Source: Candidatus Hecatella orcuttiae (GTDB lineage Archaea > Thermoproteota > Bathyarchaeia > Hecatellales > Hecatellaceae). From it: DNA of 64,000 bases. The DNA is taken from contig MTLY02000003.1 in assembly GCA_002011035.2 (NCBI GenBank), positions 256,001 to 320,000 on the forward strand, read 5' to 3'. Positions 370 through 25,731 of the stretch are shown in pieces. Numbering within the stretch: position 1 is the first letter of the stretch; the number at the start of each line of letters is the position of its first letter. A program made the position numbers and the translations under genes. The notes beneath the pieces are model-generated. The model made no database searches. It saw only the letters and a list, made by a program, of their open reading frames with translations, and was not told the origin of the DNA.

Positions 370-521
370 TGTGGGATAAGAGGATATGTGCCTCTTGCCT
401 CAGAAGACGAGGCTGCGCTTTGAAGAACACGCCCCTAAGGATGGCGTGGGTATGCTTCGAGCAGGACCCTGACCAGCCGCCGCCCGATAAGCGAGCAGGG
501 CTGCTGGAGGCGGATGTCTAA
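369..521 (+). CDS. Small Cys-rich, putative Zn-binding protein (50 aa)
   Basis: Own translation MWDKRICASCLRRRGC...WVCFEQ; CxxC plus two more Cys; ATG coupled to upstream stop. Confidence 0.4.
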   Translation: MWDKRICASCLRRRGCALKNTPLRMAWVCFEQDPDQPPPDKRAGLLEADV

Positions 522-558
522 GGCTCCCGGAGCTGAGGGCGGCTCTTCGGGGATACCC

Positions 559-2436
559 ATGGACAGCTCTAAGACAGACCAACCGACCAAGCAGGCTAAA
601 GGGCGACTCCGAGTCGACGGCCCCTTCCTCAAAGGCCTCATCGCCTGGATGCAGCGGGTGGCCGGAGAGGCCACCATCACCCTCGACGCCGAAGGCCTCC
701 GGTTCGCCTACATGGACCCCAGCCATGTGGCCATGGCCGCGGGCAGGCTGACGCCCCAGGCCTTCGCCGAATACGCGGTGGCCCAGGCCGGCTGCTTCGC
801 CGTGGACCTGGCAGACCTGGCGAAGGCGCTCAAAGGCGTCAAGAAAGGCGTGGAGGTCGGCGTCTCCGTGGACGAGAAACATGTGGCGGTAAGCTTCGAC
901 GGCGAAACCGTCCGCCTGCCGGTGCTGCCGCCCAGCGACGAGGCAGACCCACCCGAGCCCAAGCTGGCCCACGAGGCTCGGCTGAGGCTGATGCGCGGAG
1001 CCCTGCTGGACGCGGTGCGGAAGGCGGGGCAGGTGAGCGACCAGCTGGTCCTGAAGGCCACGCCCAACGCCCTCCTGGTCAGGGCGTTCAGCGAAACAGG
1101 CGACTACGAGAAAACCCTAGACCGCCACGGCGCATACATGCTGGACTTCCACAGCCCCTCCAACCGAACCGTCAAAGCCCTCTACGGAGCCTCGTTCCTC
1201 GAAGACCTCCTCACCTTCCCCGCGGAGCTGGTCACCGTCGAATTCTCCACCGAAAAGCCCGTGGCCCTCACCTTCGAGGACTACGCCTGGACGGTTCGAG
1301 GGTGGCTGGCTCCGAGGATCGGAGGCGAATACGAGCCCCGGGTCACGGTCAGGCTCTTGGAGGGCCACCCGGGAGTCTACGACGAGGACGGCCAGTTCCA
1401 CGGAGCCCAAGGCTTCAAGGCCGGTGAAATCGCCACCCTCCCCCGGTCTGCCGCGGCCAGGCTGCTGGAAGACGGCAGAGCCGCCCTGAAGCTGACCCCG
1501 GACCCGGCTGAGGGCGTGGAGCCCCTGCCCCTGGGGGCGGTGAAGCTGAAAAGGCGGAGCAAGGGCAAAGGGTGGCTGCTCAGCCGCAGCGGAGACACGG
1601 CCAAGGACGACGCCGAGCAGCTGGCAGGGAGGCTGCTGAAAGCCCTGGAGGCGGCGGAGGGGGACTACCCCGGCAGGCTGCTGGCCGCCGAGAAACCCTA
1701 CACCGGGCAGGAGGCCACCCTCTACGTCATGGCGGAGCGCAGCCGGAAAAGCTACGCCCACGCCGGCCGCTACGGGCTGCCGGTGGTGAAGGTTCTGGAA
1801 GTCGCCGAGGAACCCTTCGGCGAGCACCCGTCCTACGGCTACACCGACTGGAAGCCGCTGGAGGCGGAAGGCGAAGAAGCTGAGCAGGCTGCCAAGGCCG
1901 CTGCCGCCGAGCAGGCGGAGGAGGCGGAGGCTGGCGAGGAAGAAGGCGGAGGCTGCGAGTGGAGCCGCAGCGAGGAGGCTGACCGATACAGGGAGGAAAT
2001 GCGCCGTCTGGACGAGGAGCTGAGGAAACTCGGCCTCCTGGAGGAGCTGCGAGGCCTTGAAACCCTCAAAGTCAGAGAGCTGGCCGAGAGGGTGAAAGCC
2101 CAACCCGGCGAAGCCGTCCTCGCCACCCTAGACCGGGCCCTAGCCGTCCACGAGGAGTTCTACCGCAAACTCTACGCAGCCTACGGATGGAAACTCGAAG
2201 ACCTAAAGGAAGGACAGGCCCCCGAGGTCTCCGACATTTTAAAGATGAGGCGATGGCTCACGGGATTCCTGAAGCGGAAAGCCGAAAAACCCGAGCCCAA
2301 GCCCGAAGGCACAAGGCGGGCTAAGAAGGCGTGGGTGAAGATTTGGCTGAAGCGAGGCCGGAGGGACCGAGCCGAGCAGCTGGCCGACGAGCTGGGCATC
2401 AGCCTGGAGGCTGTGGAAAAGGAGCTGGAAGGCTAA
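559..2436 (+). CDS. PCNA-family sliding clamp fused to a GINS B-domain-like module and a long uncharacterised C-terminal region
   Basis: PCNA motifs MDPSHVAM, VDLADLAKAL, YGASFL, VEFSTEKP, WLAPRI, then VRLLEGHPGVYDEDG..GFKAGEIATLPRSAAARLLEDGRA; ATG 559 follows the TTCGGGGA motif. Confidence 0.85.
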   Translation: MDSSKTDQPTKQAKGRLRVDGPFLKGLIAWMQRVAGEATITLDAEGLRFAYMDPSHVAMAAGRLTPQAFAEYAVAQAGCFAVDLADLAKALKGVKKGVEVGVSVDEKHVAVSFDGETVRLPVLPPSDEADPPEPKLAHEARLRLMRGALLDAVRKAGQVSDQLVLKATPNALLVRAFSETGDYEKTLDRHGAYMLDFHSPSNRTVKALYGASFLEDLLTFPAELVTVEFSTEKPVALTFEDYAWTVRGWLAPRIGGEYEPRVTVRLLEGHPGVYDEDGQFHGAQGFKAGEIATLPRSAAARLLEDGRAALKLTPDPAEGVEPLPLGAVKLKRRSKGKGWLLSRSGDTAKDDAEQLAGRLLKALEAAEGDYPGRLLAAEKPYTGQEATLYVMAERSRKSYAHAGRYGLPVVKVLEVAEEPFGEHPSYGYTDWKPLEAEGEEAEQAAKAAAAEQAEEAEAGEEEGGGCEWSRSEEADRYREEMRRLDEELRKLGLLEELRGLETLKVRELAERVKAQPGEAVLATLDRALAVHEEFYRKLYAAYGWKLEDLKEGQAPEVSDILKMRRWLTGFLKRKAEKPEPKPEGTRRAKKAWVKIWLKRGRRDRAEQLADELGISLEAVEKELEG

Positions 2437-2644: not shown

Positions 2645-2680
2645 CAGGTTTATATGCGAAAACAGGGGAAGTGTTCATGG

Positions 2681-3268
2681 ATGACAGCCCGAAGGTTCAA
2701 ACAGTCCCCGCTTGGGAGAAGCTTCAGAGACGTGGTCTCCGCCGCCTTGGAGCTCCTGGAGAGAAGCGGGCTGAGCTACGCCTTGACGGGGGGAGCTGCG
2801 CTGCCCTACTTTGGAAGGGCCAGGGCGACGGCGGACGTGGACCTGGTGGTGGAACACGACGAGGAGAAGCTGAGAAGATTCGTCGAGGAGCTGAACAGAG
2901 GCGGCTTCACCGTCCCTTGGGAGTGGGTGGAGCGGTCCTTGGAGGAGAAAACCCACTTCACCGTCCAGGACACGCTCTCCCCCTACCGGCTGGACGTCAA
3001 AGTCCTGCAGCCGGGAGAGGGTTTGGGGCGGACCGTGGAGGCGGTGGTGGACGGCAGGCCGATGCGCCTCACCGCCCCGGAGGAGCTGGTCGCCCTCAAG
3101 CTCCGCCTCGGCAGCGACCTAGACCTGGAGGACGCCCGGAGCATCGTAGCCCGGCAGGGAAGCCGCCTCGACGTGCAGTATCTGCTCAGAAAGGCGGAGG
3201 AGCAGGGAGTCAGGGAAAAGGCCGTTAAGCTTCTCGAAGAGGAGGGAGTTGAAGTTGGAGAGGCGTGA
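2681..3268 (+). CDS. Nucleotidyltransferase (AbiEii/DUF6036-like), putative toxin
   Basis: YALTGGAA..GRARATADVDLVV (GG..DxD) and PEELVALKL..DLEDA motifs; TATA-like TTTATAT at ~2649. Confidence 0.75.
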   Translation: MTARRFKQSPLGRSFRDVVSAALELLERSGLSYALTGGAALPYFGRARATADVDLVVEHDEEKLRRFVEELNRGGFTVPWEWVERSLEEKTHFTVQDTLSPYRLDVKVLQPGEGLGRTVEAVVDGRPMRLTAPEELVALKLRLGSDLDLEDARSIVARQGSRLDVQYLLRKAEEQGVREKAVKLLEEEGVEVGEA

Positions 3269-3524
3269 AGAGAGACGGCGGGCCGCCAAGGCCTCCGCGG
3301 AGGCTCTGAAAGGCTACGACCCGCTCCAAGTGGTCAGCGACCTCAGCGACTACGCCCTCAGCCTCGCCGAGGCCGGGATAAGGCAGCAGAACCCTAACAT
3401 GTCCGAAGAGCAGGTCAGGGAGGAGCTCCGCCGCCTGGCCGAGTGGAGCAGCCCCTCAGCCTGGCGGGGAAAGGCAGGGCAAGCCCGCCGCGGGGGCCAG
3501 TTTTCTTTCGGGGACCAGCCGTGA
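3249..3524 (+). CDS. Small helical partner of the nucleotidyltransferase (putative antitoxin)
   Basis: Overlaps the NTase stop; LAEAGIRQQNPNMSEEQVREEL resembles small proteins paired with this NTase family. Confidence 0.55.
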   Translation: MKLERREERRRAAKASAEALKGYDPLQVVSDLSDYALSLAEAGIRQQNPNMSEEQVREELRRLAEWSSPSAWRGKAGQARRGGQFSFGDQP

Positions 3525-6830: not shown

Positions 6831-7595
6831 GTGGAAAGCGCCTTAGGCTTGCTGTCGAAGATTTTTCTAGCGGTGCCCCTGTTGGCTGCGAAGCGCATGT
6901 ACCATGAGGCCCGGGACACCTGGAATCCGTATGTCGGCTGCCTGCACGACTGCCTCTACTGCAAGAAATCCTTCCAACGCCAAGTGGCCAGGGTCGGCCG
7001 CATCTTCGGCTGCGAGGGCTGCATCCGCTACCAGCCCCACTTCCACCCTGAGAGGCTGAGCCGCCGGCTGCCCAGGACAGGCCCCGGGCAGTTTATCTTC
7101 GCCTGCGACTGCGGAGACTGGACGTTCGCCCGCCCCGAGTGGAGGGCCGCCGTCCTCCGCCGCATAGCCGAGCTTCCCGACCGTACTTTTCTCATCCAGT
7201 CCAAGAATCCCGCCTGCTTCCAGAAGGACAGCTTCCCCCCCAACGTCATCCTGGGAACGACCATCGAAACCAACCGGGACGAGCTGGGCAGGGCGATCTC
7301 CAAGGCCCCGCCTCCCTCAGCCCGCTACGCCGCGATGGCCACCCTCCGGTGGCCGAGGAAGATGGTCACCGTGGAGCCCATCATGGACTTCGACCCCGAC
7401 ACCCTCCTGCGGTGGGTGAAGGACATCAGCCCCCTCTGCGTCTACGTGGGCTACGACAGCCGCCTCACCGGGCTGCCGGAGCCGCCCCGGGCAAAGACCG
7501 AAGCCTTCATGGCGGCCGTGGAGGAAGCGGGCATCCCGGTGAGGCGGAAGCTCATCAGAGAAGCCCAACCCAGCCGCCCCGGGTTGCGAGGCTAG
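6831..7595 (+). CDS. DUF5131 (phage Gp37/Gp68) radical-SAM-like protein
   Basis: TWNPYVGCLHDCLYC (CxxxCxxC), FLIQSKNP, NVILGTTIE, VTVEPI. Confidence 0.8.
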   Translation: MESALGLLSKIFLAVPLLAAKRMYHEARDTWNPYVGCLHDCLYCKKSFQRQVARVGRIFGCEGCIRYQPHFHPERLSRRLPRTGPGQFIFACDCGDWTFARPEWRAAVLRRIAELPDRTFLIQSKNPACFQKDSFPPNVILGTTIETNRDELGRAISKAPPPSARYAAMATLRWPRKMVTVEPIMDFDPDTLLRWVKDISPLCVYVGYDSRLTGLPEPPRAKTEAFMAAVEEAGIPVRRKLIREAQPSRPGLRG

Positions 7596-7897: not shown

Positions 7898-10456
7898 TTA
7901 ATTAGCTTGATTTAGGGTTATTGCAGGTGTGAAGGTTATATTACTGTTGCCGCCTTCGCTTTTCACTAGAATTCGATGGACTTTACTTGCGTCGATTCCT
8001 TCCAGTTGCGTATGAGTTATTAAAAAGATCTGTCTAAATGACTGATCCTGGATGAGGCTATTCATTACGCTTGGACGGCGCATGTAATCCAAGCTGGCGA
8101 GTGGTTCATCCATAATGAGGCAGTTGATTATCGGTGCTCTCAGTTTTTCTGTTTTGAATGGTCTAACTCTAGCCATCAGTCGGGAGATGGCCATTCGGAG
8201 GGCCAGGCCTAGTGCGACCTTATCGCCGCCACTCAGGTTTCCTCGAAACTTCTGAAAACCATCCATTAGGTCATTTAAAGTTAGGTCTACACCTATAGTT
8301 TCACGTCCACCCCTGACTACATGGGATGTTGAGTATATCTCTTGAACCTGATATCTGCCCGTCGTGAAAGCGAAAAGATAATTGTTGGTAGCATCTTTTA
8401 AAGCGCTGAAGAGGCGTGTCTGAATAATGTACTCTGATATGAAGCCGCCGACGGTTGTCCGAAGGTATCTAACATGTTTAAGTCTTTCTTCTTTCTTTTT
8501 CTTCTCCTTCTCTTTTTGGTTCAGCTGACTGATGGTCTCTTTTAAATATTTTAGCTCTTCCATCTGCTTTTTGACTTCCGCTTTAAGCTCTTTAACTCTC
8601 TCCGCATTATTCTGATAGTCTCTTTCTAATGCAATCCTTAAGTCTCTGAGGCTTTCAAGACTGTCTACTGCAAAGTCCTTTAATATCACCTCAACACTTG
8701 CGTATTTCAAGTCAGCCAGAATATTGTCAAGTTTTGATGTAGCTTCTTTCTTCGCTCTAATTAATTTGTTCCTTTTTCCCAGGTCTCCTTTGATTTCAGT
8801 GGCCGCCTTCTCTATCGCTTTTTGCTCTTTACCTATCTTCTTAGGAATCTCTTTCAAATCTCCCTCAAGTCGTTTTATTTCACTTTCGAGTAGAGCTCTC
8901 ACTGAAATTAGTTCATCAATATTCTGGATCTGATAAGTCTCCAAAAATTTCTCTAAGGATGGAAATCCGATGGATCCAAGTTTGTGTGTGAAGGAATTAT
9001 TTTCTTTTATTAACCTATTACATATCCCTTCGAGTCTCCTAAAGATTGAGAACAGATCGCGTAATGCTTTGCATTCTTTGTTTAGGTCTTTAAGTTTCTT
9101 ATCTGACCGTACTTTCTTTTCCGACATCTCGGCAACCGTTTGTTCAATACCTTTGAGCCGCTTTTCCAGCCTAGAGAGGATGTATTTCCTTTCATCATCT
9201 GAGACCACCGGTCTAAGACATGAGGGGCACTCGCCTTCTTTTTCAAGCCTCTCTGCACTTAATTCTTTAAATTTGACCTCTGCCTTGAGGAGAGCCATGT
9301 TATCTTTAAGCTTCTCTAGTTCTTTCTCAACTTCTTCCAGTTGGGCTTCTCTTTCCTGAAGCTGTTTCTCTACCGTTGGAGTCTCGTCTTTAACCCTGTG
9401 TGGGTGTTCCTCAGGCTTAAAATTTAGTGCTAAGTTCTCGTCTTTTACAAGTTCCTTTATCTGGCTCTGAAGCTCAACAATCTTTTCATGATGCCTATTG
9501 ATCTCCTTTATTTTATCTAGGGTCGGTATGTTCCCTAATTTTTCCGTGGCTCTTCGTAAATCCGCTTCTGCTTTTTCTTTATTTTCTTGTAGAGTTCTTA
9601 GCTCTTTTTCATGCTCGGCTTTTTCATCGGTGGATCGTCTGATCTTCTCCTCTAAATGTCCTAGTTCCTTCTCAGCTTGAGCGACATTATCCAATAGCTC
9701 TTTGATACTAGATATGGTGTCTTTTTCTGGAATTCTTTTAAGCTCAACCTCAATCTCGCGTTGGCTCTTTTCCAGCCGCTTCTTGTGTTCCTCAAGTTCA
9801 GATATCTTCTCTTCAAGTCGTTCCTTATCCCTTTCTTTATCGGGTAGCTTTGCCGTTTCTCGTTCGATCTCATGGATCTCCCTCTCTAAAGCTTTTTCAT
9901 CCTGCAGAAGTATATCGGAGTGTATCTGATCCAATTCGTCGAGGTTGAACAATGTGCTGATAATACTTCGGAGCAGTGTAGGTGGTGCGGTAGCTAGGGA
10001 ATCAACTTCCCCCTGTCGGATGAAGACAGTGTGCAATGCGTTCTCTCTCGATATGCCCATTAATTCTTCAAGCTTAGATTCTACACGTCCGCTACCCTCT
10101 TCCATTACTACGAATTTATCGCCAGAACGTCTGCTCAAAACCGCATCAGCACCTGTCTTTCCCCGCATGTATCTTCTGATAACCTGATATTCCTCACCAC
10201 CCACTTCAAATTCTAATGTTACCTTACATTCAGAGTGTTTCTTTTTCACAAGCTGGTCTTGTTTCTCAACCGGAACCGCAAGTGTTCCCCATAGAGCCCA
10301 TAAAATTGCCTCTATTAGACTGGTCTTGCCGCTCGAGTTTAAGCCTTCAACAACGAAGAGACCTTCAGGAAGACTCTGAGCGAAATCCCCAGAAGGTAGC
10401 TCAATCTTATCGAAAGGCTTAAACCGTTCGGCGATAAGCCTTAAAACCTTCATCAC
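7898..10456 (-). CDS. rad50: Rad50/SbcC-family SMC-like ATPase
   Basis: Walker A GLNSSGKTS, Q-loop FIRQGE, coiled coils around a CPSC zinc hook, signature LSGGD, Walker B IMDEP, H-loop ITH. Confidence 0.92.
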   Translation of the reverse strand: MMKVLRLIAERFKPFDKIELPSGDFAQSLPEGLFVVEGLNSSGKTSLIEAILWALWGTLAVPVEKQDQLVKKKHSECKVTLEFEVGGEEYQVIRRYMRGKTGADAVLSRRSGDKFVVMEEGSGRVESKLEELMGISRENALHTVFIRQGEVDSLATAPPTLLRSIISTLFNLDELDQIHSDILLQDEKALEREIHEIERETAKLPDKERDKERLEEKISELEEHKKRLEKSQREIEVELKRIPEKDTISSIKELLDNVAQAEKELGHLEEKIRRSTDEKAEHEKELRTLQENKEKAEADLRRATEKLGNIPTLDKIKEINRHHEKIVELQSQIKELVKDENLALNFKPEEHPHRVKDETPTVEKQLQEREAQLEEVEKELEKLKDNMALLKAEVKFKELSAERLEKEGECPSCLRPVVSDDERKYILSRLEKRLKGIEQTVAEMSEKKVRSDKKLKDLNKECKALRDLFSIFRRLEGICNRLIKENNSFTHKLGSIGFPSLEKFLETYQIQNIDELISVRALLESEIKRLEGDLKEIPKKIGKEQKAIEKAATEIKGDLGKRNKLIRAKKEATSKLDNILADLKYASVEVILKDFAVDSLESLRDLRIALERDYQNNAERVKELKAEVKKQMEELKYLKETISQLNQKEKEKKKKEERLKHVRYLRTTVGGFISEYIIQTRLFSALKDATNNYLFAFTTGRYQVQEIYSTSHVVRGGRETIGVDLTLNDLMDGFQKFRGNLSGGDKVALGLALRMAISRLMARVRPFKTEKLRAPIINCLIMDEPLASLDYMRRPSVMNSLIQDQSFRQIFLITHTQLEGIDASKVHRILVKSEGGNSNITFTPAITLNQAN

Positions 10457-11708
10457 TTTTCCTCCATTTTTTCATTGCCTCGACGAAGAGTTCAGTCAGC
10501 AGATTTAGGTTGTACTCCTTGGGAATGAGGTTCTTTTTCCTCTTTTCTTCTATGTAGTTTTTGAAGTCCTTCGCGGGATCTTCTATCAGATACTCTATGT
10601 CCACATAACTGATGCTGGGTGGTAAGGTTGAAGCCTTTATGGGTGGTCGGCCAATTTTTAGTTGAATTATATTCAGGTTCCTGTCTGAAAGCCCTTTATT
10701 ATATGCATAGTCGATTGCCTCAGAAATTTGGGTCACATTTCTACCAGATATTTCCCCTTCTAATGCTATCCTTACCCGCGCGGCCGTTTCGTAATCGTAC
10801 GGTTTTCTAAAGCCCAGATTATCCAGTAGGTTAAAGATTCTCTTTACGATATCATGGGAAGAATCGTCAAGCTGAACTTGAACCGTTTCATTTACCATAG
10901 GTCTTGGCAGAGTTAAATGGACTTGTCTAATATCCGGTGCTTTATCCTTGTCTGCTTGAACGATGAGAAAACCTTTCTTATGGTCTTTCTCGTCGAATTT
11001 CCATCTCTCCGTCGAGCCAGAAAACCATGCCTTTTCTGTGACGCGACGCATACAGTGTTCATGTCCAAGGGCAATATAGTCGAATTCCATATTTAGAATA
11101 GTTTGGTCAAGAGTTCCATCAATTGGAGAGCCGTGGGCTATCGCTATATTAATTTTGTCTTTGTCTAGTTTTATGCTCTTGAGCCACTGCTGGTACTCTT
11201 CATACAAACCTATGGTTTCAAGAGTTGATGGTTCAATGTATGGAAACGCATAAACTCTAACTTCATCTTTTATATCAGCATATAATGGTTGCTTTTCACG
11301 GAATGTCTCTCTGAAACTCCAGTAAGTAAAAGCTCGTGTGTTATCGAAGGCGATAGCATACTCGTCCAATGTAGAATGCTTATATTCGACGTAACGACCA
11401 TGATTTCCGTCGATGATTACAATGGGTATGTTTGCTGATTGGAGGTCTCTAAATGCTTTTGCAACAATTTTTCTAGCCATCTCTGGCGGAGGATAGGGAT
11501 TGTATGACCATGGAGAATCGAATAAGTCTCCAGAGTGAATAACGAGGTCAATCTCATCTTTCCGGTCAACAATCTCTTTTACAGTCATTTCCAATGCCTT
11601 GTAGAAGTCGTCCTCAACAGGACGAACTTCTTGCCCTATTGTTCCAGGTCTCACATCATCGGGTCTATGGCCCAGATGGGTATCGGAAACATGAGCTATG
11701 ACTACCAA
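10419..11708 (-). CDS. mre11: Mre11/SbcD metallophosphoesterase nuclease
   Basis: HVSDTHLG, GDLFD, GNHG, AHG, ALGHEH, SGSTE motifs; overlaps rad50. Confidence 0.92.
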   Translation of the reverse strand: MVVIAHVSDTHLGHRPDDVRPGTIGQEVRPVEDDFYKALEMTVKEIVDRKDEIDLVIHSGDLFDSPWSYNPYPPPEMARKIVAKAFRDLQSANIPIVIIDGNHGRYVEYKHSTLDEYAIAFDNTRAFTYWSFRETFREKQPLYADIKDEVRVYAFPYIEPSTLETIGLYEEYQQWLKSIKLDKDKINIAIAHGSPIDGTLDQTILNMEFDYIALGHEHCMRRVTEKAWFSGSTERWKFDEKDHKKGFLIVQADKDKAPDIRQVHLTLPRPMVNETVQVQLDDSSHDIVKRIFNLLDNLGFRKPYDYETAARVRIALEGEISGRNVTQISEAIDYAYNKGLSDRNLNIIQLKIGRPPIKASTLPPSISYVDIEYLIEDPAKDFKNYIEEKRKKNLIPKEYNLNLLTELFVEAMKKWRKSDEGFKAYRRTV

Positions 11709-11729
11709 AATTTATACCTCCCTAATTAG

Positions 11730-13499
11730 TTATAACACGGTTTTTGACCTTACCGGAGTTCCAGCCTTTGTCTGATACAGGGTCCTAGTCTTTTCATAGA
11801 GCGAGTCGAAAAGGGGTGTATAGATGACTAGTGGAGTATCTCGGTAACTTGCTGTTAGAATGATTTCACCTTTACCCAGAACTTTAAATTCGTTTTCAAA
11901 GCCGGTAATATCTTTGCTTGCATTAGAGATTGCTGCCCTTATCTCGTCTGCACTTGTTAAAGACATATTGAACTGTGTATTAATGCAGGATAAGATAATG
12001 TTATCCAGGGCTGTAACCTGCTGACTAATAACCGCCAAACCTAGCCGAAACTTTCGGCCCTGTCGGGCTATATCCTTGTATATGTTTTCAAACCTCATTA
12101 TACGAGGTGTCAGAACCGATGGGGCTTCTTCTACCGTTATCAGAATGGGAGGCAACTCGTCTATTCTCCTCATTTCTTGTTCATCTTTGGAGTAATATTT
12201 CTTGGCTATGGACTGCCCTTTATTTCCGACAAAGTGTTCCCTAAACGTTCGTGGAATTCTTCTCTTCAGAATTTGGGCTTTAAATTCGCTCCAATTTGTT
12301 GACGATTTGACAGCCTTTCTTAATTCAAAAATGGTCCTTGCGATTACTGTTGTGGAGAGGAATTGTTCTAAATCCGAAAGGAGGCTGGTGTTGAATATAA
12401 GAATTCTGCCCTGCTCCAAGGCTTCAATTATCTTTATTAAAGTTGATTGTTCTGGGTTATCTACAAAGATGGCTGAACGTCTCACGAATTCCAGCCGCCT
12501 TTCTACGGCATTTATTGTTACATCAGGATATCGACCGCTAAAGTCTTCACCTATTTGGGTAATCCAATTTTCGTGGAAGTGTGCATACAGAGCGTTCATG
12601 TAACTGACCATTTGGTCGCTGACTTCCATGATTGAGGTGATGTCCAGCGGTAATATTTCTTGGTAGGCAATTCTTACATCTAATGACAACCTTCGAACGG
12701 CCTCAGCTGCCGTTTCACGGTGGGGTGTAAGGTAATAAAAGTCTTTGAAGAGTTCTCTTTTCGCTTCATCAGGCATTGAGTCTACAATAGACTGTATCCC
12801 ATATTTTCTGATTCCCAAAGCAAACTCATCGTGGGGGTCTATGGCCAGCATTGAAGCTCTCTTACTATCACCACTCTGCCAAGACTTGAAGTTAAAGTCT
12901 ACCACCGATTTTAGGAAAACTAGGAGGAAATTTGACTTTCCAGCGCCCGTAGTTCCAAAGATCCCTATATGTGTTGAGATGTGTTCTAACGGCAGATTTA
13001 CTCTGACATTTAACACCTCTTCGCCTGCTAACAGGCTTCCTACAAAGATCTCTCCTTTCAGTTGACTGGATAGGATCTGTTCGATGGGTCTGTCACTTTT
13101 GTTAGGAATAGGCCGATAAATTATGGCAAAGTGTTCTGGAAGACGCCTAGGCATTTTAAAGTCCCATGAATGAGAACCTTCACCGCCAGCTTCAGCATAT
13201 CCGAGTAGTTTCCCTGTAAGGTAAAGAAGTTTCTCTTTCTCAGCGCTGGCTAGATAGGCATCTCCCTCTACCACAAGAGTATCTGCGACCTTGCTTAACT
13301 CCCTTATCCGTCTTAGAATATTTATACAATCCATAGCGCGAAACAGAAAGATTCTCTTTCGACCTCCTCGTGTTGAGGGGATGAGGAACAATTCGCCTAC
13401 GGCAACATCTTCATTTTTGGCTGATAAAGCCAATTCTGTGACTGAGCTCTCTGCTAATCTACCAAATCCTTCTGCCCATTTATCTATATCAAAACTCAT
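11730..13499 (-). CDS. herA: HerA-family DNA translocase ATPase
   Basis: HIGIFGTTGAGKS, IDPHDEF, ITVEEAP, IARQGRKF..ISQQ. Confidence 0.9.
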   Translation of the reverse strand: MSFDIDKWAEGFGRLAESSVTELALSAKNEDVAVGELFLIPSTRGGRKRIFLFRAMDCINILRRIRELSKVADTLVVEGDAYLASAEKEKLLYLTGKLLGYAEAGGEGSHSWDFKMPRRLPEHFAIIYRPIPNKSDRPIEQILSSQLKGEIFVGSLLAGEEVLNVRVNLPLEHISTHIGIFGTTGAGKSNFLLVFLKSVVDFNFKSWQSGDSKRASMLAIDPHDEFALGIRKYGIQSIVDSMPDEAKRELFKDFYYLTPHRETAAEAVRRLSLDVRIAYQEILPLDITSIMEVSDQMVSYMNALYAHFHENWITQIGEDFSGRYPDVTINAVERRLEFVRRSAIFVDNPEQSTLIKIIEALEQGRILIFNTSLLSDLEQFLSTTVIARTIFELRKAVKSSTNWSEFKAQILKRRIPRTFREHFVGNKGQSIAKKYYSKDEQEMRRIDELPPILITVEEAPSVLTPRIMRFENIYKDIARQGRKFRLGLAVISQQVTALDNIILSCINTQFNMSLTSADEIRAAISNASKDITGFENEFKVLGKGEIILTASYRDTPLVIYTPLFDSLYEKTRTLYQTKAGTPVRSKTVL

Positions 13500-13501
13500 T
13501 T

Positions 13502-14770
13502 TTATTCAAGTCCTATTCTTCGTCTAGGATTTAAGAGGGATTCCTCAGAAAAACCCTCTTCTTTACCTATTTCGATAACTCTCTCATAGAATAGATCTCT
13601 GTCCTCTCTAGTTAGGCTGCAGGATAGATGTGCAAAAGCTGGAGGACAAGGATAACCATACCATCTTGCGTCATGGGACATGAAGTCTATCTCTCGGAAA
13701 ATATTGATTTCATTCATTCGCATCTTTTCCGCGTTATTATCATAAATCTTTGACTCCCACCACCTACGGTCAAAGTCCACCCTAAACGCGGGCATTGAGC
13801 TGGTGAAGCTGAAAAGATACGTTACACCTAATTCGGGGGGTATGCGTCGCTTCCGACATATTTTCAACTTTCCACCAGGGTCATCATTTCCGGGAATCCT
13901 ACAAAACCAGTGAGCGTCGGGTCCATACTTCCTTCTCGCAAGTTGGATTATTTTCTCACCACCTGGGATCGTATGAGACTTACTGAGAGCCATAACAATT
14001 ACGCCTTCTTTTCGAGCCCTGAAGCACAAATCCCTCAACATATAATCATGGAGAAGGTGAGGGTAATCATATCTGGCCGGGAAGAGAAGAGTAAGAGTTG
14101 TGTCCAGTATCACGTATTTTAGGTTAAGGTTCGAGTCTAACGCCCTCTTTGCCATCGAAATTTCCGCAGACCACCTAAGCATGTCAAGTATTCTCTCAGG
14201 AAGATGAACTGGTGGACTGATAACGAAGTCGCTTATGTCTGATTTTCCATATTTCCTTAAAATTTTGTCAACCGAATCTAACTTACCCTTTGTATAGTCG
14301 ATGAAGTATGGGACCAACAAGTTATTCAAGTCATTGATCAGATAGACACGTTTCACATAATCAACAAAGTTTTGCCATAGAACATCCTCATCAAAAGACG
14401 ACCAGAAGGCCACGGTTAACCTTCCACCATCAGGAATATACCCTTGGTTCCTTAACTCTTTCAGCTCCATTATTCGACCATCATTTGTTCCCGTATTGTG
14501 AACCGTTAACCCCACAGTTATTAGATACAGGAAGACATCCTCATATTGAACTACTGGAGCCATACCACTTCCATCAACAGCCCCTATCAGAAAATCATTT
14601 TCAAATTTGTACCCTGATGGAAAGGGCTTAAAACTAACTAAAAGCTCTTCAATCCTCTGAAGATCGCTGTCAAATAGATTTGCCTGAGCTATGTCACGAT
14701 TCTTAATTTGGCGATAAGCAGACCGAACTTCATTTTCAAAGTCGGACGCGAAAGCCCGATCTGAAATCAT
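13502..14770 (-). CDS. nurA: NurA-family nuclease
   Basis: GAVDGS, ILDTTL, LSKSH and C-terminal GYPCPPAFAH; directly upstream of herA. Confidence 0.85.
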   Translation of the reverse strand: MISDRAFASDFENEVRSAYRQIKNRDIAQANLFDSDLQRIEELLVSFKPFPSGYKFENDFLIGAVDGSGMAPVVQYEDVFLYLITVGLTVHNTGTNDGRIMELKELRNQGYIPDGGRLTVAFWSSFDEDVLWQNFVDYVKRVYLINDLNNLLVPYFIDYTKGKLDSVDKILRKYGKSDISDFVISPPVHLPERILDMLRWSAEISMAKRALDSNLNLKYVILDTTLTLLFPARYDYPHLLHDYMLRDLCFRARKEGVIVMALSKSHTIPGGEKIIQLARRKYGPDAHWFCRIPGNDDPGGKLKICRKRRIPPELGVTYLFSFTSSMPAFRVDFDRRWWESKIYDNNAEKMRMNEINIFREIDFMSHDARWYGYPCPPAFAHLSCSLTREDRDLFYERVIEIGKEEGFSEESLLNPRRRIGLE

Positions 14771-15088: not shown

Positions 15089-18000
15089 TTGGAAATTTTA
15101 GATAGACTTAAGAACAACATTTTTGAAGATGCATTATCATTTGACCTTCGTACCCAGGCAGAGTATTTATCTCTTACTCGAGATGTTGATTATCCTTTCT
15201 CGGCGTTAACCTCAAAGGCAAAACTATTGCCTCATCAAGTTGGAGTTGCCCATAAGGTCTTGAGCAGTATCAGGTCCGGCAGCCTATTGGCGGATGAAGT
15301 AGGGCTTGGAAAAACGATCGAGGCCGGCATGATTCTTAAGGAGTACTTATGTCGAAAGCAGATTAAGAAGATTCTAATACTAACTCCGGCGTCACTCACA
15401 ACTCAGTGGCGTGACGAATTGAAATCGAAATTTGACGAAGGTTTCGTCATATATGATCAAGAAACGAGGAAAAATCTAGAGAGACGGCATGAAAACATTT
15501 GGAAAGCATATGACAAGGTTATTTGCTCAATAGATACAGCTAAACAACAACGTTACCGGAAGGATATAGTAACCGTCAACTGGGATATTATAATAGTTGA
15601 TGAGGCTCATAAATTAAAGAACAGGAAAACCGAGAACTATAAGCTCTTAGAGGACTTACCTAAAAACCGCGTCTTTTTTCTGACCGCAACTCCGCTTCAA
15701 AATAAGCTAGAAGAGTTATATAATCTAATTAGCCTAATAGATGAGAAACTACTTGGAACGTATGACTCTTTCTCGATGAGATTTGTTGACGATACAAAAG
15801 GCTTGGTTCCTAATAATTTTGATGATTTGAAGCAACGTCTCCAAAAAGTAATGATTAGAAACAGGAGAAAAGATGTTTTTGGTGTAAGGTTCACGCAACG
15901 TTTTGGTGAAACAATTCCGTTTGAGTTGACTCCGGAAGAAAGAAGGCTGTACGACGAAGTGACAAAGTATGTCAAACAAGAATACTTGAAGGCTATGGAG
16001 CAGAACAAAGCTGGAAGAGGGTTTCTGCTCATTATCATGCAAAGAATGGTCTGTAGTAGTAGCTTCGCCATAAGAGATTCGTTAGGGCGTCGAATTCAAC
16101 GTCTGGTAAAGATCTCTAAAGAGTATGACATAGTGCCTAAGCAACCTTCTCTGACGAGCATCAGCCACCCATATTTTGAGGCTTTAGGCGTAAATCATAC
16201 TGCCACTAAAGATGAGATAAAAGCTGCTTATCGAACTTTGGCAAAGGAATACCATCCAGATATTTCGCCGCTACCTAAAGATGTTGCAGAGGAAAAGTTT
16301 AAGGAAATATCAGAGGCCTATGAGACGCTGACCGACGACAACAAAAGGAAGCGACTTATTGAGGAGCATGAGGATGCCGATATAAGTGATATCGCAAAAA
16401 ATTTCACTCTGCTTCAGATGGAGCTAGAAAAACTTAATCAACTTTATGAATTAGCAAGCAAAATCACCAAGAACAGCAAAGGCGAAAAACTTATTGAGGC
16501 CCTCGAAGCGTTGAAGCGAGAAGAGCCAAACGAGAAAGTTCTTATATATACCGAATTCAGGTCAACACAAAGGTACCTTTATGAGCTTTTGACCTCAAAA
16601 GGCTATGAAGTCGCAATATTCAACGGCTCAATGAGTGTAGAAGAAAAGGATGAAGCAGTTAAGCAATGGCGTGAGAACAAACAGATAATGGTCTCAACTG
16701 AATGTGGAGGAGAAGGAAGGAACTTTCAGTTCTGCCACATAATGTTTAACTACGACCTTCCTTGGAATCCTATGAGAGTGGAACAGAGGATAGGTAGAAT
16801 TCATCGGATAGGACAGGAGAAGAATGTGAAAATATTCAACTTCTCAACTAAAGAAACCATCGAAGAGTATGTGTTAGAATTACTCGAGACAAAGATTCAA
16901 CTGTTCAAGGAAGTTATCGGTGAGCTTGATCTAATACTAGGCGATATAGTCGAGGATGCCAATCTTGAGAGGGTGATAATGGAAATCTTAGTTAAGGCTA
17001 AGACTTCCCAAGAGTTGAAGGAGAACTTCGAAGAGCTTGGCAGAAAGATACAGATAGCAAGAGAAGAGTTTAAGAAGGGTCTTAAAGACCTCGATGAAAG
17101 GGTTTATGCCGGGTTTGACCTCTCAGTTTATCGCCGAGTGATGGGAACTGAGCTTGAAAATCTAGTAATGAAAGAGAGAATAGTCATAAAACGTTTTTTC
17201 CTAAACTATTTAAAGAGTAAAAATTTAGACTTTAGATATCTAGAGCCGGAAGAAGCAGTTATATTCCAGATACCAGAGGAGTTTAAAAATATTATAAGTG
17301 ATTTTGCGCAGAAGCAACGTCAATTTTACCTTAGAGAGCGAGATAGATTTTATGAATTGCTGGAAAAACCGCTTGAAATAGCTAAAGATATTCATGGGTT
17401 TATAGAGGATTGCGTGTGTAAGCTATGTAGTGGTCATACGATAAAATCCTGTTTCAATTGTTCAATTCATACGTATTTAGAGAATGTTGCCTTCCATGCG
17501 AATGCAGGATTTACTTCTATTCTGAAAAATGACCTTGACTATGTAACTTCTAATCGCTTTCGAGAGGATGTAGAAGGAAGAATTCTCAGAGGCAAGATCA
17601 AGGCTAGAGCTACATTTTCACCTGAAGTTGCACAGCAAGAAAACATTGAGTTGATCACTATTGGAAACAGGTTAGTCGAAAATGCGATTGAGGAATGCAA
17701 AAAGAAAGGACTGACCACCAAAAAACTGATAGACCTAAGCAAACATACGCTTAGAGGGTTTGAAAAATACAGTGGATTAAGAGGAATATTATTTAATTTT
17801 AAGGTTTCTTTCGAATCCTTCGATAAGAAAGAAGAGTTAATTCCAATTGTGATCGATTTAGACCATATGAAATATGAAGAAGAACTCTCAGGTGAGGTTA
17901 ATTGGCTTTATAGCACCGAGCTTTTAGACCAAATTGCCATTAAATCAGATGAAGTCGACGAGGCCTATCAATTGGCGGTAAACGAGTTAAACACTAAGGT

Positions 18001-18364
18001 AAAAACTGAACTCGAAAAGATAAGAGGGAAGAATAAGATGTATTTCGAGGATGAGCTAAACAAGATTGAAACATACTACGACGATATTAGACACACCATG
18101 ATTTTGAAGGAACGTGAATTGGAGGATAAATACGTAGACCTGATAGGCAGAATAAGGAACAGCCGTGAATTTGAAGCCAGAGAAAAATACAGAGAAGAAC
18201 AGAGGAAAATTGAGATTCAACTAACGAAGTTGAGAAACGAAAATAACAGATTCTGGGAGGAGATGGTTAATAAAAGAGCTAAAGAGCTGAAAAAGCTTGA
18301 AGAACAAAATACAATAAAAACTAAGATAGAATTAATTAATTCAGCCCTCATTAAAATCAGTTGA
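15089..18364 (+). CDS. SNF2-family helicase (RapA/YqhH/DrmD-like) with an inserted DnaJ J-domain
   Basis: [54 protein letters not shown]; J-domain [36 protein letters not shown] at ~16172-16351. Confidence 0.92.
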
Positions 18365-18377
18365 GGGTCCCCGACTG

Positions 18378-21300: not shown

Positions 21301-21492
21301 GTTGTGGTTAAACTTATTAATGATTACTTGAGAGCAATTAATAACCGAAGACTGTTGCAACAAGAAATTCAAGCCACGGATAAAATACTAGATGAAAAAA
21401 TCTATAAACTCTACGATCTAAATCAGGATGAAATATCCTTAATAGAGAGTTCTATACAGCGATATTTTGTTGAGGAATCCTTTTACATCTAA
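18378..21492 (+). pseudogene. Type IIG restriction-modification enzyme (HsdR_N-like nuclease + N6-adenine MTase + TRD), frameshifted at ~19445
   Basis: ORF1: LGWD, PADY..ELKK, QAMRYA, LTNF, LGAIYE, GIFYTP. ORF2: VLDPACGSGSFL, GVDLD, GNSL, FDVVVGNPPH, TaqI_C-like YILAFLNS. The two frames meet at AATACATT. Confidence 0.85.
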
Positions 21493-23096: not shown

Positions 23097-24029
23097 TCAC
23101 CTAACAGGGCGTTCAGGTCCGTAAGGGGATAGGTAGGGCTCTGCTTTCAGGTAGGCCCGTTCCAGCTCCGGCCGCGGCGGAATGAAGTAGGCGACCCTCA
23201 GCCGGCCTAGGCTGTGGCCCATCATGTATTCGACCACGGCCTCGTTGACTCCCGCCAGCTTGGCCATGGTGTTGAACCACTTCCGGAGTGAGTGGCAGGT
23301 TATCTGACCGTCGACTCCGGCTTCGGCGGCCAGCCCTGTGACCAGCCGGCGGGCTGTGCGGTCGCTGATGGGGAAGACCCTCTCTTCTGCGCTCGGTTTC
23401 CCGTCCTCTTGGAAGTAGGCTTGGAGGGCGCTGCAGGCGTCCCGGCCTAGGAAGGTTTCAAACCACCCTTGGGTTTTCTGCCTCCGCAGCCGCAGGTAGA
23501 CAGGCCGTTTTCCAGCCTCCAGCTCGGTTTTGACGGCGCCGTAGGTGAGGGCCAGCAGGTCCGCCTCGGAGAGGCCGCTCTGAGCCTGGCAGAGCACGTA
23601 GGCCCGCCCGCGGGGGTCCGCCAGGTCGCACATGGCCCTGAGCTCCTCCCGGCTGGGCACCCGGCTGGCGGTCTCCGTCCAGCTCTGCGGAGCCTTCACC
23701 TTGAGGGGGAGGTAGTTGGCCGTGAAGAAGCTGCGCACCGCGGCGTGGGCGAACGCGGCGGAGCTCCGGCGGAGGCCCTCCCTGCGCTGGAGGTGGTTGA
23801 ACCAGGCTGTGAGCCGCTCCTCCATCCTCCGCCGGACGGCCTCATCCTTCGCCTCCAGCTCCCGGCGCCGCCGCTCCACCAGCTCATCGGGGGACATTTT
23901 GACGAACCCGCAGAACCTTCGCAGCCAGAGCCCGTAGGCCCGCCGGGTGTTGGGGCTGCCGGAGTGTTCCCCGGCCAGCCTCTCGAACCACCGCTCCACC
24001 GCTTCGCCGCCCGGCTCCTGAGGGCCCAC
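23097..24029 (-). CDS. Tyrosine recombinase/integrase
   Basis: SPNTRRAY, QSGLSEADL, RQKT, HSLRKWF, MMGHS, VAY. Confidence 0.9.
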   Translation of the reverse strand: MGPQEPGGEAVERWFERLAGEHSGSPNTRRAYGLWLRRFCGFVKMSPDELVERRRRELEAKDEAVRRRMEERLTAWFNHLQRREGLRRSSAAFAHAAVRSFFTANYLPLKVKAPQSWTETASRVPSREELRAMCDLADPRGRAYVLCQAQSGLSEADLLALTYGAVKTELEAGKRPVYLRLRRQKTQGWFETFLGRDACSALQAYFQEDGKPSAEERVFPISDRTARRLVTGLAAEAGVDGQITCHSLRKWFNTMAKLAGVNEAVVEYMMGHSLGRLRVAYFIPPRPELERAYLKAEPYLSPYGPERPVR

Positions 24030-25499: not shown

Positions 25500-25515
25500 C
25501 CCGGCCAGGGCGCCA
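25500..25515 (+). repeat. Putative attR of element 1: 3' end of a tRNA-Asp/Glu
   Basis: CCCGGCCAGGGCGCCA resembles archaeal tRNA-Asp 3' ends (from memory); lies at the MGE-to-housekeeping switch; partner copy not in window. Confidence 0.55.
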
Positions 25516-25731
25516 AATCATTTCTCCCTAATTTAGTCCCTCCGACTGTAGCAGACTGGCGGCTCATAGTTGGCAAGAGATAAAAGAAAAAGATAGGGTT
25601 AAGTATGCGCAGGAAGTGAGTATGTTAATGAGTGTTAAATATTCTTGAAAGAAAAATCTAGCGTTACAAAAGTGGATGGGTGTGGAGGTAGACGGAGGGA
25701 GTTTGAACAGCCGTAAAAGGAGAGATAATGT

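What the first reader, a model, noticed from the sequence alone, without database searches (positions are those of the whole stretch)
559..2436. Mobile-element PCNA fused to a GINS B-domain-like module and a long tail
Seen: a complete PCNA (MDPSHVAM...WLAPRI) continues in frame into VRLLEGHPGVYDEDG..FKAGEIATLPRSAAARLLEDGRA, then an unknown domain, an acidic linker and a helical basic tail. Established: archaeal PCNA normally ends right after LAPR, and the second segment follows the Gins51 B-domain pattern (VR...G..GPFK.GD...LP...A..L...G.A) that binds GAN/Cdc45. Inference: an element-encoded adaptor that tethers a clamp to the host CMG helicase, or inhibits or hijacks the host replisome. I know of no described PCNA-GINS-B fusion.
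Basis: partly seen in the sequence, partly recalled or inferred. Interest (0 to 1): 0.78.

Follow-up and report, generated by a model that had tools for sequence, protein, structure and literature searches.

The report
Mobile-element sliding clamp with GINS hook
An integrated mobile element in a Bathyarchaeia genome encodes a DNA sliding clamp fused to a copy of the small GINS domain that normally hooks the replicative helicase and polymerase together, which suggests, without proving, a built-in way to plug into the host replication machinery.

Summary
ORF 514-2436 (640 aa; alternative start at 559) is one uninterrupted gene. Contigs from four runs cross the clamp/tail junction without indels, and three diverged homologues share the architecture.

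Domains:
- Residues 33-271 are a PCNA clamp.
- Residues 270-330 are a true homologue of the Gins51 C-terminal (B) domain. hhalign gives 90% against the host's own Gins51. 3ANW and 5GHR are the top two of 48,161 chains (Z 8.4 and 7.3). One family member passes Pfam's Gins51_C cut-off.
- After that come an α/β domain with no match, an acidic linker and a helical module.
- The protein ends in a conserved basic-aromatic tag. A second protein of the same element and several small proteins elsewhere carry the same tag.

The gene lies in a 52.5-kb island bounded by an 18-bp duplication of a tRNA 3' end. It is a core gene of a rare element family: 3 clusters among 1.84 billion representatives.

Binding of the hook to host RecJ/GAN or PolD DP1 is inferred, not shown. 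The same Pfam domain also occurs in extracellular solute-binding proteins of these archaea, so the fold alone does not prove replisome binding. I rate it a new variant of a known kind (element-encoded PCNA). I found no description in print.

The parts
514..2436 (+). Whole gene, 640 aa (625 aa if it starts at ATG 559): PCNA clamp with a 370-aa multi-domain tail
   Evidence: ORF list and translation. GGAGG at 506-510 lies before ATG 514. The exact protein is seen on 7 contigs, the longest 1,267,205 bp. Contigs of 4 runs cover it without indels.
610..1326 (+). PCNA sliding-clamp domain (residues 33-271), ending in the LAPRI motif
   Evidence: NCBIfam sliding-clamp models, best E 2.8e-31 over residues 33-271, below the curated subfamily cut-offs. 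Pfam PCNA_N 29.1 bits against a cut-off of 20.3. 29 PDB PCNA sequences at E<=0.001, best 9.5e-17. 35% identity to the host PCNA.
1321..1503 (+). Gins51 C-terminal (B) domain homologue (residues 270-330)
   Evidence: Pfam Gins51_C E 0.018 in this protein; homologue P0004 passes the cut-off with 27.5 bits against 27. It is the second-best Gins51_C hit in the whole genome after the host Gins51. hhalign to the host Gins51: 90.3%, aligned to residues 131-176 of 182. Foldseek: 5ghr_B and 3anw_A, probability 1.00, rmsd 1.8-1.9 A. VIA-align: 3anw_A Z 8.4 and 5ghr_B Z 7.3, ranks 1 and 2 of 48,161 chains.
1540..1860 (+). Conserved alpha/beta domain of unknown fold family (residues 343-449; order b-b-a-b-b-b-b)
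   Evidence: AF2 model with mean pLDDT 83.3. Conserved in all 4 aligned homologues. Best structural matches are weak: VIA Z<=4.4, Atlas TM<=0.45.
1870..1956 (+). Acidic low-complexity linker (residues 453-481)
   Evidence: 10 D+E against 1 K+R. Length and sequence vary among homologues.
1957..2283 (+). Helical module (residues 482-590). It is replaced by other inserts in homologues and occurs on its own in P0005 and P0009.
   Evidence: phmmer hits P0005 (E 1.9e-6) and P0009 (E 9.6e-4) cover tail residues 170-327. AF2 model is all helices with pLDDT 87. Only generic helical-bundle matches, Z<=7.5.
2299..2433 (+). Conserved C-terminal basic-aromatic tag (residues 596-640; core KAW[IV]KI[WH]L followed by a second helix)
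   Evidence: 12 invariant columns in 5 sequences. Found at the C-terminus of 9 proteins in a 5.8-billion-protein search: 4 PCNA fusions and 5 small proteins. Also found in a second protein of the same element, P0016, at G000:C3:246567-246641, E 1.1e-6.
6831..7595 (+). DUF5131 gene, syntenic with the gene downstream of the fusion in metagenome elements L006 and L007
   Evidence: Pfam DUF5131 30 bits. tblastn 38.8% identity to the L006/L007 ORFs.
23097..24029 (-). Tyrosine recombinase near the right end of the island
   Evidence: Pfam Phage_integrase and Phage_int_SAM_1.
25500..25517 (+). Right copy of an 18-bp direct repeat (putative attR). The left copy is the 3' end of a tRNA gene at G000:C3:229010-229027, 52.5 kb upstream.
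   Evidence: It is the only exact repeat of >=18 bp at a distance >3 kb within C3:228001-284000. The alignment shows the repeat is the T-arm/acceptor end of the ARAGORN tRNA.

Best explanation
The gene encodes the sliding clamp of an integrated mobile element of a Bathyarchaeia archaeon.

Shown:
- The N-terminal 270 residues are a PCNA.
- The polypeptide continues into a homologue of the Gins51 C-terminal domain, then a conserved alpha/beta domain, a flexible acidic linker and a variable helical module.
- It ends in a conserved C-terminal tag that other proteins of the same element family also carry.
- No polymerase, primase or helicase was detected among the element ORFs scanned.

Inferred:
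- The PCNA part forms a ring that the host clamp loader puts on element DNA.
[quoted passage not shown] In this protein the Gins51C-like module hangs from the front face of the ring on each subunit. It would capture the host's PolD and/or GAN-CMG, giving the element privileged access to a host replisome.
- The shared C-terminal tag gathers other tagged element proteins, or DNA, onto the same scaffold.
For: Clamp.

Gins51C homology rests on five independent lines:
- Pfam: sub-threshold in P0001, above the cut-off in homologue P0004.
- It is the second-best hit in the whole genome after the host Gins51.
- hhalign gives 90.3% to exactly the C-domain of the host Gins51.
- A profile built only from the fusion tails matched at E<=0.001 in 118 of 401 genomes of the phylum. 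Most matches lie at the C-terminal end of open frames of about 158-231 aa, which I take to be Gins51.
- Fold: 3ANW_A Z 8.4 and 5GHR_B Z 7.3 are ranks 1 and 2 of 48,161 chains. PriS-CTD and eukaryotic GINS subunits follow.

A Gins51C HMM scores the four fusion segments at 27-43 bits. An HMM of the solute-binding-protein modules scores them at 21-28 bits.

The beta-strand that contacts GAN in T. kodakarensis (D163, M164, I166; PMC5100581, passages) reads E-I-A-T-L-P here. In cellular Gins51 of related genomes it reads D-V-A-T-L-P or N-I-A-T-L-P. The acidic residue is E in 4 of 4 fusions.

Candidate partners exist in the host: archaeal RecJ (460 bits against a cut-off of 360), PolD DP1 and Gins51.

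Element context:
- 62-65% GC against a 52% genome.
- Shared gene order with metagenome contigs L005-L008: ligase, small Cys proteins, fusion, DUF5131.
- tRNA-end duplication and an integrase.
- An ATP-dependent ligase was the only other replication enzyme Pfam or PHROGs found in the element ORFs scanned.

Tag: present in a second protein of the same element.
Against: - No binding was measured or predicted with support.
- Pfam's Gins51_C domain is also present, above its cut-off, in 6 of 6 extracellular SBP_bac_5 proteins examined. The Gins51C HMM scores those modules higher (median 50 bits) than the fusion's. The module is therefore reused outside replication.
- The position equivalent to I166 is T, A, D and D in the four fusions. 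The position equivalent to V170, a DP1N contact (PMC9023282), is S in all four.
- P0001 itself is below Pfam's cut-off (15.3 against 27 bits).
- The element looks partly decayed. Its ligase, and a gene related to L006 70-804, each match their homologues in two different frames. The clamp gene may therefore no longer be in use in this host.
- Trimer formation and loading by RFC were not tested.
- The scan for replication genes covered only ORFs of 50-70 aa or more, with Pfam and PHROGs. A divergent primase or helicase could have been missed.
Confidence: 0.5

Rival explanations
1. Structural or adaptor tail without replisome capture. The Gins51C-like module is a generic small interaction or spacer module, as in the stalks of the solute-binding proteins. 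The tail serves another task, for example holding element proteins that carry the same C-terminal tag, or tethering the clamp to element DNA or a particle. The protein is still a clamp, but its partners are element-encoded.
For: Gins51_C modules occur in 6 of 6 SBP_bac_5 proteins examined, just before a coiled coil and a membrane anchor. Small phage proteins of the same fold are common in BFVD. The tag is shared with P0016 in the same element and with 5 small proteins elsewhere. The alpha/beta domain and the tag are as conserved as the B-like module.
Against: The fusion's module scores higher with the Gins51C HMM than with the SBP-module HMM in 4 of 4 cases. It is fused to a replication protein. 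The GAN-contact strand resembles that of cellular Gins51.
Confidence: 0.27
2. Decoy or inhibitor. The Gins51C-like hook titrates GAN and/or PolD away from the host GINS, or the variant clamp poisons host PCNA rings, to shut down or redirect host replication. The binding is the same as in the best explanation but the consequence is the opposite.
For: In T. kodakarensis, Gins51C alone binds GAN tightly and binds either GAN or the GINS core, not both (PMC5100581, passages). A free extra copy would therefore compete. The clamp is only 35% identical to the host PCNA.
Against: A decoy would not need a complete clamp, a 300-aa further tail, or a tag shared with other element proteins. The element keeps a ligase, a classic clamp client, next to the fusion in homologous contigs.
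Confidence: 0.15
3. Artefact or dead gene: the long frame arises from an assembly error, or from a frameshift that joins PCNA to a downstream gene.
For: High-GC DNA gives long chance frames. Two other genes of the element match their homologues in two different frames.
Against: The same fusion exists in three diverged homologues from other samples. Contigs of 4 runs show no indel at the junction. GC3 is 0.82 throughout.
Confidence: 0.02

Closest known systems
PCNA copies encoded by archaeal viruses and integrated elements (for example T. kodakarensis PCNA2/TK0582 in TKV3, and PCNA-like proteins of Asgard viruses)
   Same: An extra, divergent clamp carried by a mobile element next to a chromosomal PCNA (PMC3914693 and PMC11529989, passages read). 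Among its best PDB sequence matches is T. kodakarensis 'sliding clamp 2', 3lx2.
   Different: The PCNA structures matched here are ordinary-length chains of 244-276 aa, apart from two longer entries. This protein carries 370 further residues with four additional modules. In the passages I read, no element PCNA with a GINS domain is mentioned.
Gins51 C-terminal (B) domain of archaeal GINS (PDB 3ANW, 5GHR/5GHS, 7E15)
   Same: Same fold and detectable sequence homology. Both sit at the end of a flexible connection to a larger replication protein.
   Different: It is attached to PCNA rather than to the GINS A domain, so the protein is not a GINS subunit. The residues equivalent to I166 and V170 differ. 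Partner binding is untested.
Psf1 B domain in the eukaryotic CMG-Pol epsilon complex
   Same: The homologous module links Cdc45 and the Dpb2 N-domain of the polymerase (PMC9023282, passages). Eukaryotic GINS chains are among the fold matches, with Z 5.3-5.5.
   Different: It is part of a stable helicase complex, not of a clamp.
PriS C-terminal domain
   Same: Another replication protein carrying the same small module at its C-terminus (1zt2_A, Z 5.6). The PriS next to Gins51 in L014 ends in a similar sequence.
   Different: The function of that copy is not known to me (recalled). The carrier protein is different.

Membership tests
PCNA / archaeal DNA polymerase sliding clamp | Sequence match to clamp models over both halves of the protomer | tested here: met
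   NCBIfam clamp models cover residues 33-271 (E 2.8e-31) but lie below the curated subfamily cut-offs, 108.7 against 239 bits. Pfam PCNA_N is above its cut-off, 29.1 against 20.3. 29 PDB PCNAs match.
PCNA / archaeal DNA polymerase sliding clamp | Closed trimeric ring that is loaded on DNA and binds PIP-box clients | not tested
   No oligomer model or assay was run.
Gins51_C (PF22090), GINS B domain | Pfam gathering score | tested here: inconclusive
   P0001 scores 15.3 bits against a cut-off of 27, so it is not met. Homologue P0004 scores 27.5 against 27, so it is met. hhalign of the family to the host Gins51 gives 90.3%.
Gins51_C (PF22090), GINS B domain | Small beta-sheet plus helix fold of solved Gins51C | tested here: met
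   3anw_A: Z 8.4, rmsd 2.4 A over 57 residues. 5ghr_B: Z 7.3. These are ranks 1 and 2 of 48,161 chains. Foldseek probability is 1.00. Model pLDDT is 83.
GINS subunit (Gins51/Gins23) | Helical A domain that builds the GINS tetramer | tested here: not met
   No GINS A-domain family was reported for the protein by Pfam or NCBIfam. The module follows a PCNA. The protein is therefore not a GINS subunit.
Gins51C as GAN / DP1N hook | Binds the RecJ/GAN DHH domain and PolD DP1 N-domain | not testable with these tools
   Only sequence comparison of the contact strand was possible (against PMC5100581 and PMC9023282).
PIP-box PCNA client motif (for the C-terminal tag) | Q-x-x-[LIVM]-x-x-[FYWHL]-[FYWHLI] (the loosened canonical pattern scanned) | tested here: not met
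   No match to this pattern in the tail of P0001, P0003 or P0004. The tag fits only a relaxed pattern, K-A-W-V-K-I-W-L.
Helix-turn-helix DNA-binding domain (for the C-terminal tag) | Match to an HTH family; three-helix unit with a recognition helix | tested here: inconclusive
   Only sub-threshold Pfam hits: Sigma70_r3 0.011, HTH_10 0.017. The third helix is acidic, and it is missing in the small tagged proteins P0008 and P0013-15. The fold searches of the C-terminal model covered mainly its residues 1-119.

The most novel reading that the evidence does not exclude
The protein is the organising hub of a minimal hijacking kit. It would be a clamp that carries its own copy of the GINS hook. On element DNA it would replace GINS as the bridge between host PolD, RecJ/Cdc45 and the clamp. 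Its conserved C-terminal basic-aromatic tag would be a previously unknown docking signal that brings the other tagged element proteins onto the same ring. That would be a new way for a mobile element to assemble a replisome from host parts without encoding any polymerase or helicase. It would also be a natural experiment on how clamp and CMG can be coupled.
Probability: 0.22. Interest if true: 0.82.

Novelty: new variant of a known kind. Interest (0 to 1): 0.62.

Why it matters
Element-encoded PCNAs are known, but their purpose is mostly unclear. This one shows its likely partners in its own domain layout. It carries the one small module that, in archaea and eukaryotes, joins the helicase co-factor (GAN/Cdc45) and the replicative polymerase (PolD DP1 / Pol epsilon Dpb2).

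If the hook is functional, it gives a directly testable model of how a mobile element with no polymerase or helicase recruits a host replisome. It also gives a compact reagent for probing clamp-CMG-polymerase coupling in a lineage (Bathyarchaeia) with no genetic system.

The side observation that Pfam's Gins51_C domain also sits in extracellular solute-binding proteins widens what this 'replication' domain can do.

Tried and rejected
- Complex prediction: host RecJ residues 1-345 + host DP1 N-domain + the B-like module. Score 0.00; the verdict was 'no answer', so it is evidence neither way. Two earlier hand-ins of a two-chain version were not accepted because the queue was full.
- RNA evidence: no RNA holder was listed for window 900-1900.
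- Word-based search with the whole protein found only its own cluster.
- Scans with the fusion alignment found no relative in the species-genome contigs or in IMG/VR. The metagenome scan gave 4 loci.
- The phylum scan found no second genome with the whole tail. Only G000 matched profile positions 2-179 among 401 genomes.
- Middle alpha/beta domain: no convincing match. Foldseek PDB best was ANT(4') nucleotidyltransferase, probability 0.3-0.6. VIA Z<=4.4. BFVD gave nothing for this part. Atlas TM<=0.45, with MecA-, SOUL- and GyrI-like rows all under the bar. It was never folded alone, so I do not claim a new fold.
- C-terminal helical module: only TPR-like or generic helical-bundle matches.
- C-terminal tag: PDB sequence profile gave only sub-threshold hits, with the E2 peripheral-subunit-binding domain at 0.051. 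Pfam gave HTH-like hits, also sub-threshold.
- Strict PIP box in the tail: none.
- Rfam did not call the tRNA that ARAGORN found at L004 2939-3025.
- Earlier findings of the scan were not open.
The HMM comparison was then run from stored files.
Full report
**1. Observation**

The window's first 4 kb are 62-66% G+C against 51-52.5% for the three contigs of the genome. ORF 514..2436 on the + strand translates to 640 residues without a stop, with GC3 of 0.82.

Two starts are possible:
- ATG 514 follows a GGAGG at 506-510 and overlaps the stop of the upstream 51-aa ORF by 8 nt.

Homologues begin to align at about residue 27.

The exact protein is on record on 7 contigs, the longest 1.27 Mb.

Logan contigs of 4 of 4 runs laid on 400-2600 show no insertion or deletion. 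Two pieces from studies not flagged as the possible source bridge the clamp/tail junction: X6, 1171-1726, and X7, 1037-1629. The 'stop after LAPRI' refutation therefore fails as far as contigs can show.

**2. The clamp**

Evidence that residues 33-271 are a PCNA:
- They match NCBIfam sliding-clamp models, best E 2.8e-31. The score is below the curated subfamily cut-offs, so this is a divergent clamp.
- Pfam PCNA_N is above its cut-off.
- 29 PDB PCNA sequences match at E<=0.001, including T. kodakarensis 'sliding clamp 2'.

The genome has a second, ordinary PCNA of 249 aa on another contig. It is 35% identical, lies next to a 361-aa ORF that I did not scan (it looks PriL-like to me by eye), and ends two residues after LAPR.

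**3. The post-PCNA module**

Residues 270-330 are a homologue of the Gins51 C-terminal (B) domain. The lines of evidence are independent of each other.

- (a) Pfam Gins51_C hits residues 301-323 at E 0.018, below the cut-off. In a six-frame search of the whole genome this is the second-best hit after the host's own Gins51: 18.9 against 59.8 bits. The homologue P0004 passes the cut-off with 27.5 against 27 bits, covering model positions 2-47 of 48 (also listed in the precomputed column).
- (b) hhalign of the four fusion segments against the host Gins51 (182 aa) gives probability 90.3%. The alignment falls exactly on residues 131-176.
- (c) A PDB sequence-profile search puts Gins51 (5ghr_B) first of 177,635 sequences. 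E is only 0.35, not significant alone.
- (d) An AF2 model of residues 270-453, built on 4 sequences, has pLDDT 83.3 and pTM 0.70.
  - Foldseek finds 5ghr_B, 3anw_A and 5ghs_D at probability 1.00, rmsd 1.8-1.9 A over 50-54 columns. Human, Saccharolobus and C. elegans GINS chains follow at about 0.9.
  - VIA-align, which does not depend on Foldseek, ranks 3anw_A (Z 8.4, rmsd 2.4, 57 residues, chain residues 130-186) and 5ghr_B (Z 7.3) first and second of 48,161 chains.
  - Next come PriS 1zt2_A (Z 5.6), eukaryotic GINS chains (Z 5.3-5.5), and ribosomal chains that I take to be protein bL9 (Z about 5).
- (e) Reciprocally, a profile built only from the fusion tails matched at E<=0.001 in 118 of 401 genomes sampled from the phylum.
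  - Most matches cover profile positions of about 7-55 at the C-terminal end of open frames of about 158-231 aa. I take these to be Gins51.
  - I confirmed that identity only for the host copy and for L014 (54.5 bits; it lies next to a primase-like ORF). The rest is inferred from length and position.

**4. A caveat found on the way**

The same scan hit open frames of about 680-850 aa. Six of six that I examined are SBP_bac_5 extracellular solute-binding proteins. Each carries one or two Gins51_C modules above Pfam's cut-off (27.4-71.3 bits), just before a coiled coil and a C-terminal membrane anchor.

The module is therefore reused outside replication in these archaea.

I built one HMM from 25 Gins51-type segments and another from 8 SBP modules, all derived from stored files:
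- The four fusion segments score 27.2-42.8 bits with the Gins51 HMM.
- They score 21.3-27.6 bits with the SBP HMM, lower in 4 of 4 cases.
- The Gins51 HMM scores the SBP modules even higher (median 50 bits).

Both sets were picked with the fusion profile, which biases them. The fusion's module is thus closer to Gins51 than to the SBP copies, but fold and family membership alone do not establish a replisome partner.

**5. What Gins51C does (literature, passages read)**

- In T. kodakarensis, Gins51C is the mobile hook that binds the DHH domain of GAN, the Cdc45/RecJ homologue. D163 and the M164/I166 pair, on its fourth strand, are required (PMC5100581).
[quoted passage not shown] V148D/V170D abolishes this. 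The arrangement mirrors Psf1C-Cdc45-Dpb2N in yeast (PMC9023282).

Here the corresponding strand reads E-I-A-T-L-P. The acidic residue is E in 4 of 4 fusions and the next residue is I or V. The I166 position is T, A, D and D, and the V170 position is S in all four.

Cellular Gins51 segments of related genomes read D-V-A-T-L-P, N-I-A-T-L-P or D-I-A-T-I-P at the same place. The window's copy therefore looks like a local Gins51 on that strand.

The host has the candidate partners:
- an archaeal RecJ, 460 bits against a cut-off of 360;
- PolD DP1;
- Gins51.

**6. The rest of the tail**

- *Residues 343-449* fold with confidence into a b-b-a-b-b-b-b domain. It is conserved in all homologues and has no convincing structural relative. 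I could not fold it alone.
- *Residues 453-481* are an acidic linker.
- *Residues 482-590* are a helical module. Homologues carry other inserts here. The module occurs alone in P0005 and P0009.
- *The last 45 residues* are the most conserved part, with 12 invariant columns in 5 sequences.
  - A search of longer proteins found this tag at the C-terminus of 9 proteins. Four are PCNA fusions (P0002, P0003, P0004, P0012). Five are small proteins of 127-154 aa: P0006, and the Cys/His-rich P0008 and P0013-15.
  - In the window's genome a second protein of the same element, P0016 (176 aa, G000:C3:246129-246659), ends in the tag (E 1.1e-6).
  - The tag fits only a relaxed PIP-like pattern, not the loosened canonical pattern that I scanned.
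  - It gives only sub-threshold HTH and E3-binding-like hits.
  - Its third helix is acidic, and it is absent from the small proteins. I read the tag as a shared docking or oligomerisation signal. Its partner is unknown.

**7. Element and host**

- RecJ relatives carry Bathyarchaeia titles in most of the 80 loci listed, including the 20 best. The host is therefore a Bathyarchaeia archaeon.
- The high-GC segment spans about C3:243000-260000, interrupted by a low-GC insert with a DNA methylase.
- tblastn shows a gene set shared with metagenome contigs L005-L008, which have 40-49% GC: a Cys-rich protein, a 244-aa protein (phrog_1221), an ATP-dependent DNA ligase, a small Cys protein, the fusion, and DUF5131 at window 6876-7568.
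- In this genome the ligase, and a gene related to L006 70-804, each match their homologues in two different frames. The copy may therefore be decaying.
- The only exact repeat of >=18 bp at long range within C3:228001-284000 pairs the 3' end of a tRNA gene (C3:229010-229027) with window 25500-25517. A tyrosine recombinase lies at 23097-24029. My own estimate of chance expectation for such a repeat is about 0.02. The fusion gene thus lies inside a 52.5-kb, GC-mosaic integrated island.
- Apart from the ligase, Pfam and PHROGs found no polymerase, primase or helicase in the high-GC element ORFs that I scanned.

**8. Rarity**

- Exhaustive phmmer of the tail against 1.84 billion representatives gave 8 proteins at E<=0.001. 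Only three clusters (P0002, P0003, P0004) have the whole tail.
- Each of the 7 clusters looked up has 1-2 members and no name.
- No relative turned up in the GTDB species contigs or in IMG/VR.
- Only G000 among 401 phylum genomes matched the whole tail.

**9. Verdict**

The functional claim remains an inference. My preferred model is an element clamp that uses a Gins51C-type hook to capture host PolD and/or GAN-CMG, and a shared tag to gather element proteins (confidence 0.5). The rivals are a non-replisome adaptor tail (0.27), a decoy (0.15) and an artefact (0.02).

Four literature searches, and the passages read in PMC3914693, PMC11529989 and PMC3307487, show element-encoded PCNAs but no PCNA-GINS-domain fusion. 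Supplements were not opened.

Noticed in passing
L015 1306-3180(-), L016 1-1902(+), L017 1216-3174(-), L019 1441-3354(-), L020 1333-3183(-), L024 1309-3138(-): Extracellular SBP_bac_5 solute-binding proteins in genomes of the host's phylum carry one or two Pfam Gins51_C modules (27.4-71.3 bits, all above the cut-off) just before a coiled coil and a C-terminal membrane anchor. A 'replication' domain is being used outside the cell. I know of no description of this (recalled; not searched).
   Followed up: partly
L003 8547-8840 and 8881-9417 (G000:C3:248547-249417); also L003 10723-10851 and 10917-11357: The element's ATP-dependent DNA ligase, and a gene related to L006 70-804, each match their metagenome homologues in two different reading frames. 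These are likely frameshifts, so this integrated copy may be decaying.
   Followed up: partly
L003 6129-6659 (G000:C3:246129-246659), protein P0016: A 176-aa protein of the same element ends in the same basic-aromatic C-terminal tag as the PCNA fusion (E 1.1e-6). Small Cys/His proteins of 127-136 aa from other samples carry it too.
   Followed up: partly
window 25500-25517 and G000:C3:229010-229027: An 18-bp direct repeat equal to the 3' end of a tRNA gene brackets a 52.5-kb, GC-mosaic island, with a tyrosine recombinase at window 23097-24029. ARAGORN could not assign the tRNA's anticodon, and Rfam did not call the tRNA.
   Followed up: partly
window 7898-14770 (-): A low-GC (about 41-43%) block inside the island encodes an SMC/Rad50-like ATPase (852 aa), a Mre11-like phosphoesterase (429 aa), a HerA-like helicase (589 aa) and a 422-aa ORF with no Pfam family. 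It may be a horizontally acquired repair or defence module rather than the host's own operon.
   Followed up: no
window 15089-21492 (+): An SNF2-family helicase with an inserted DnaJ domain (1091 aa) is followed by an HSDR_N/MmeI_N-like protein and an Eco57I/MmeI-type methylase-specificity protein. This looks like a type IIG/ISP-style restriction or defence cluster. A DDE transposase fragment lies at 21775-22368.
   Followed up: no
window 2654-3268 and 3249-3524 (+): Directly after the fusion gene come a DUF2204 nucleotidyltransferase-like gene and an overlapping Rv0078B-related antitoxin-like gene (the latter below Pfam's cut-off). This may be a toxin-antitoxin pair of the element.
   Followed up: no
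window 2368-2401: Other contigs in runs X1, X3 and X7 match this 34-nt stretch of the tag-coding region with 3 mismatches. The same communities therefore hold further genes with a similar tag.
   Followed up: no
L003 13297-14253 (+) and 14236-14814 (-): A low-GC insert inside the high-GC element carries an N4/N6 DNA methylase and a convergent 192-aa ORF with no Pfam family. It may be a restriction-modification cassette.
   Followed up: no
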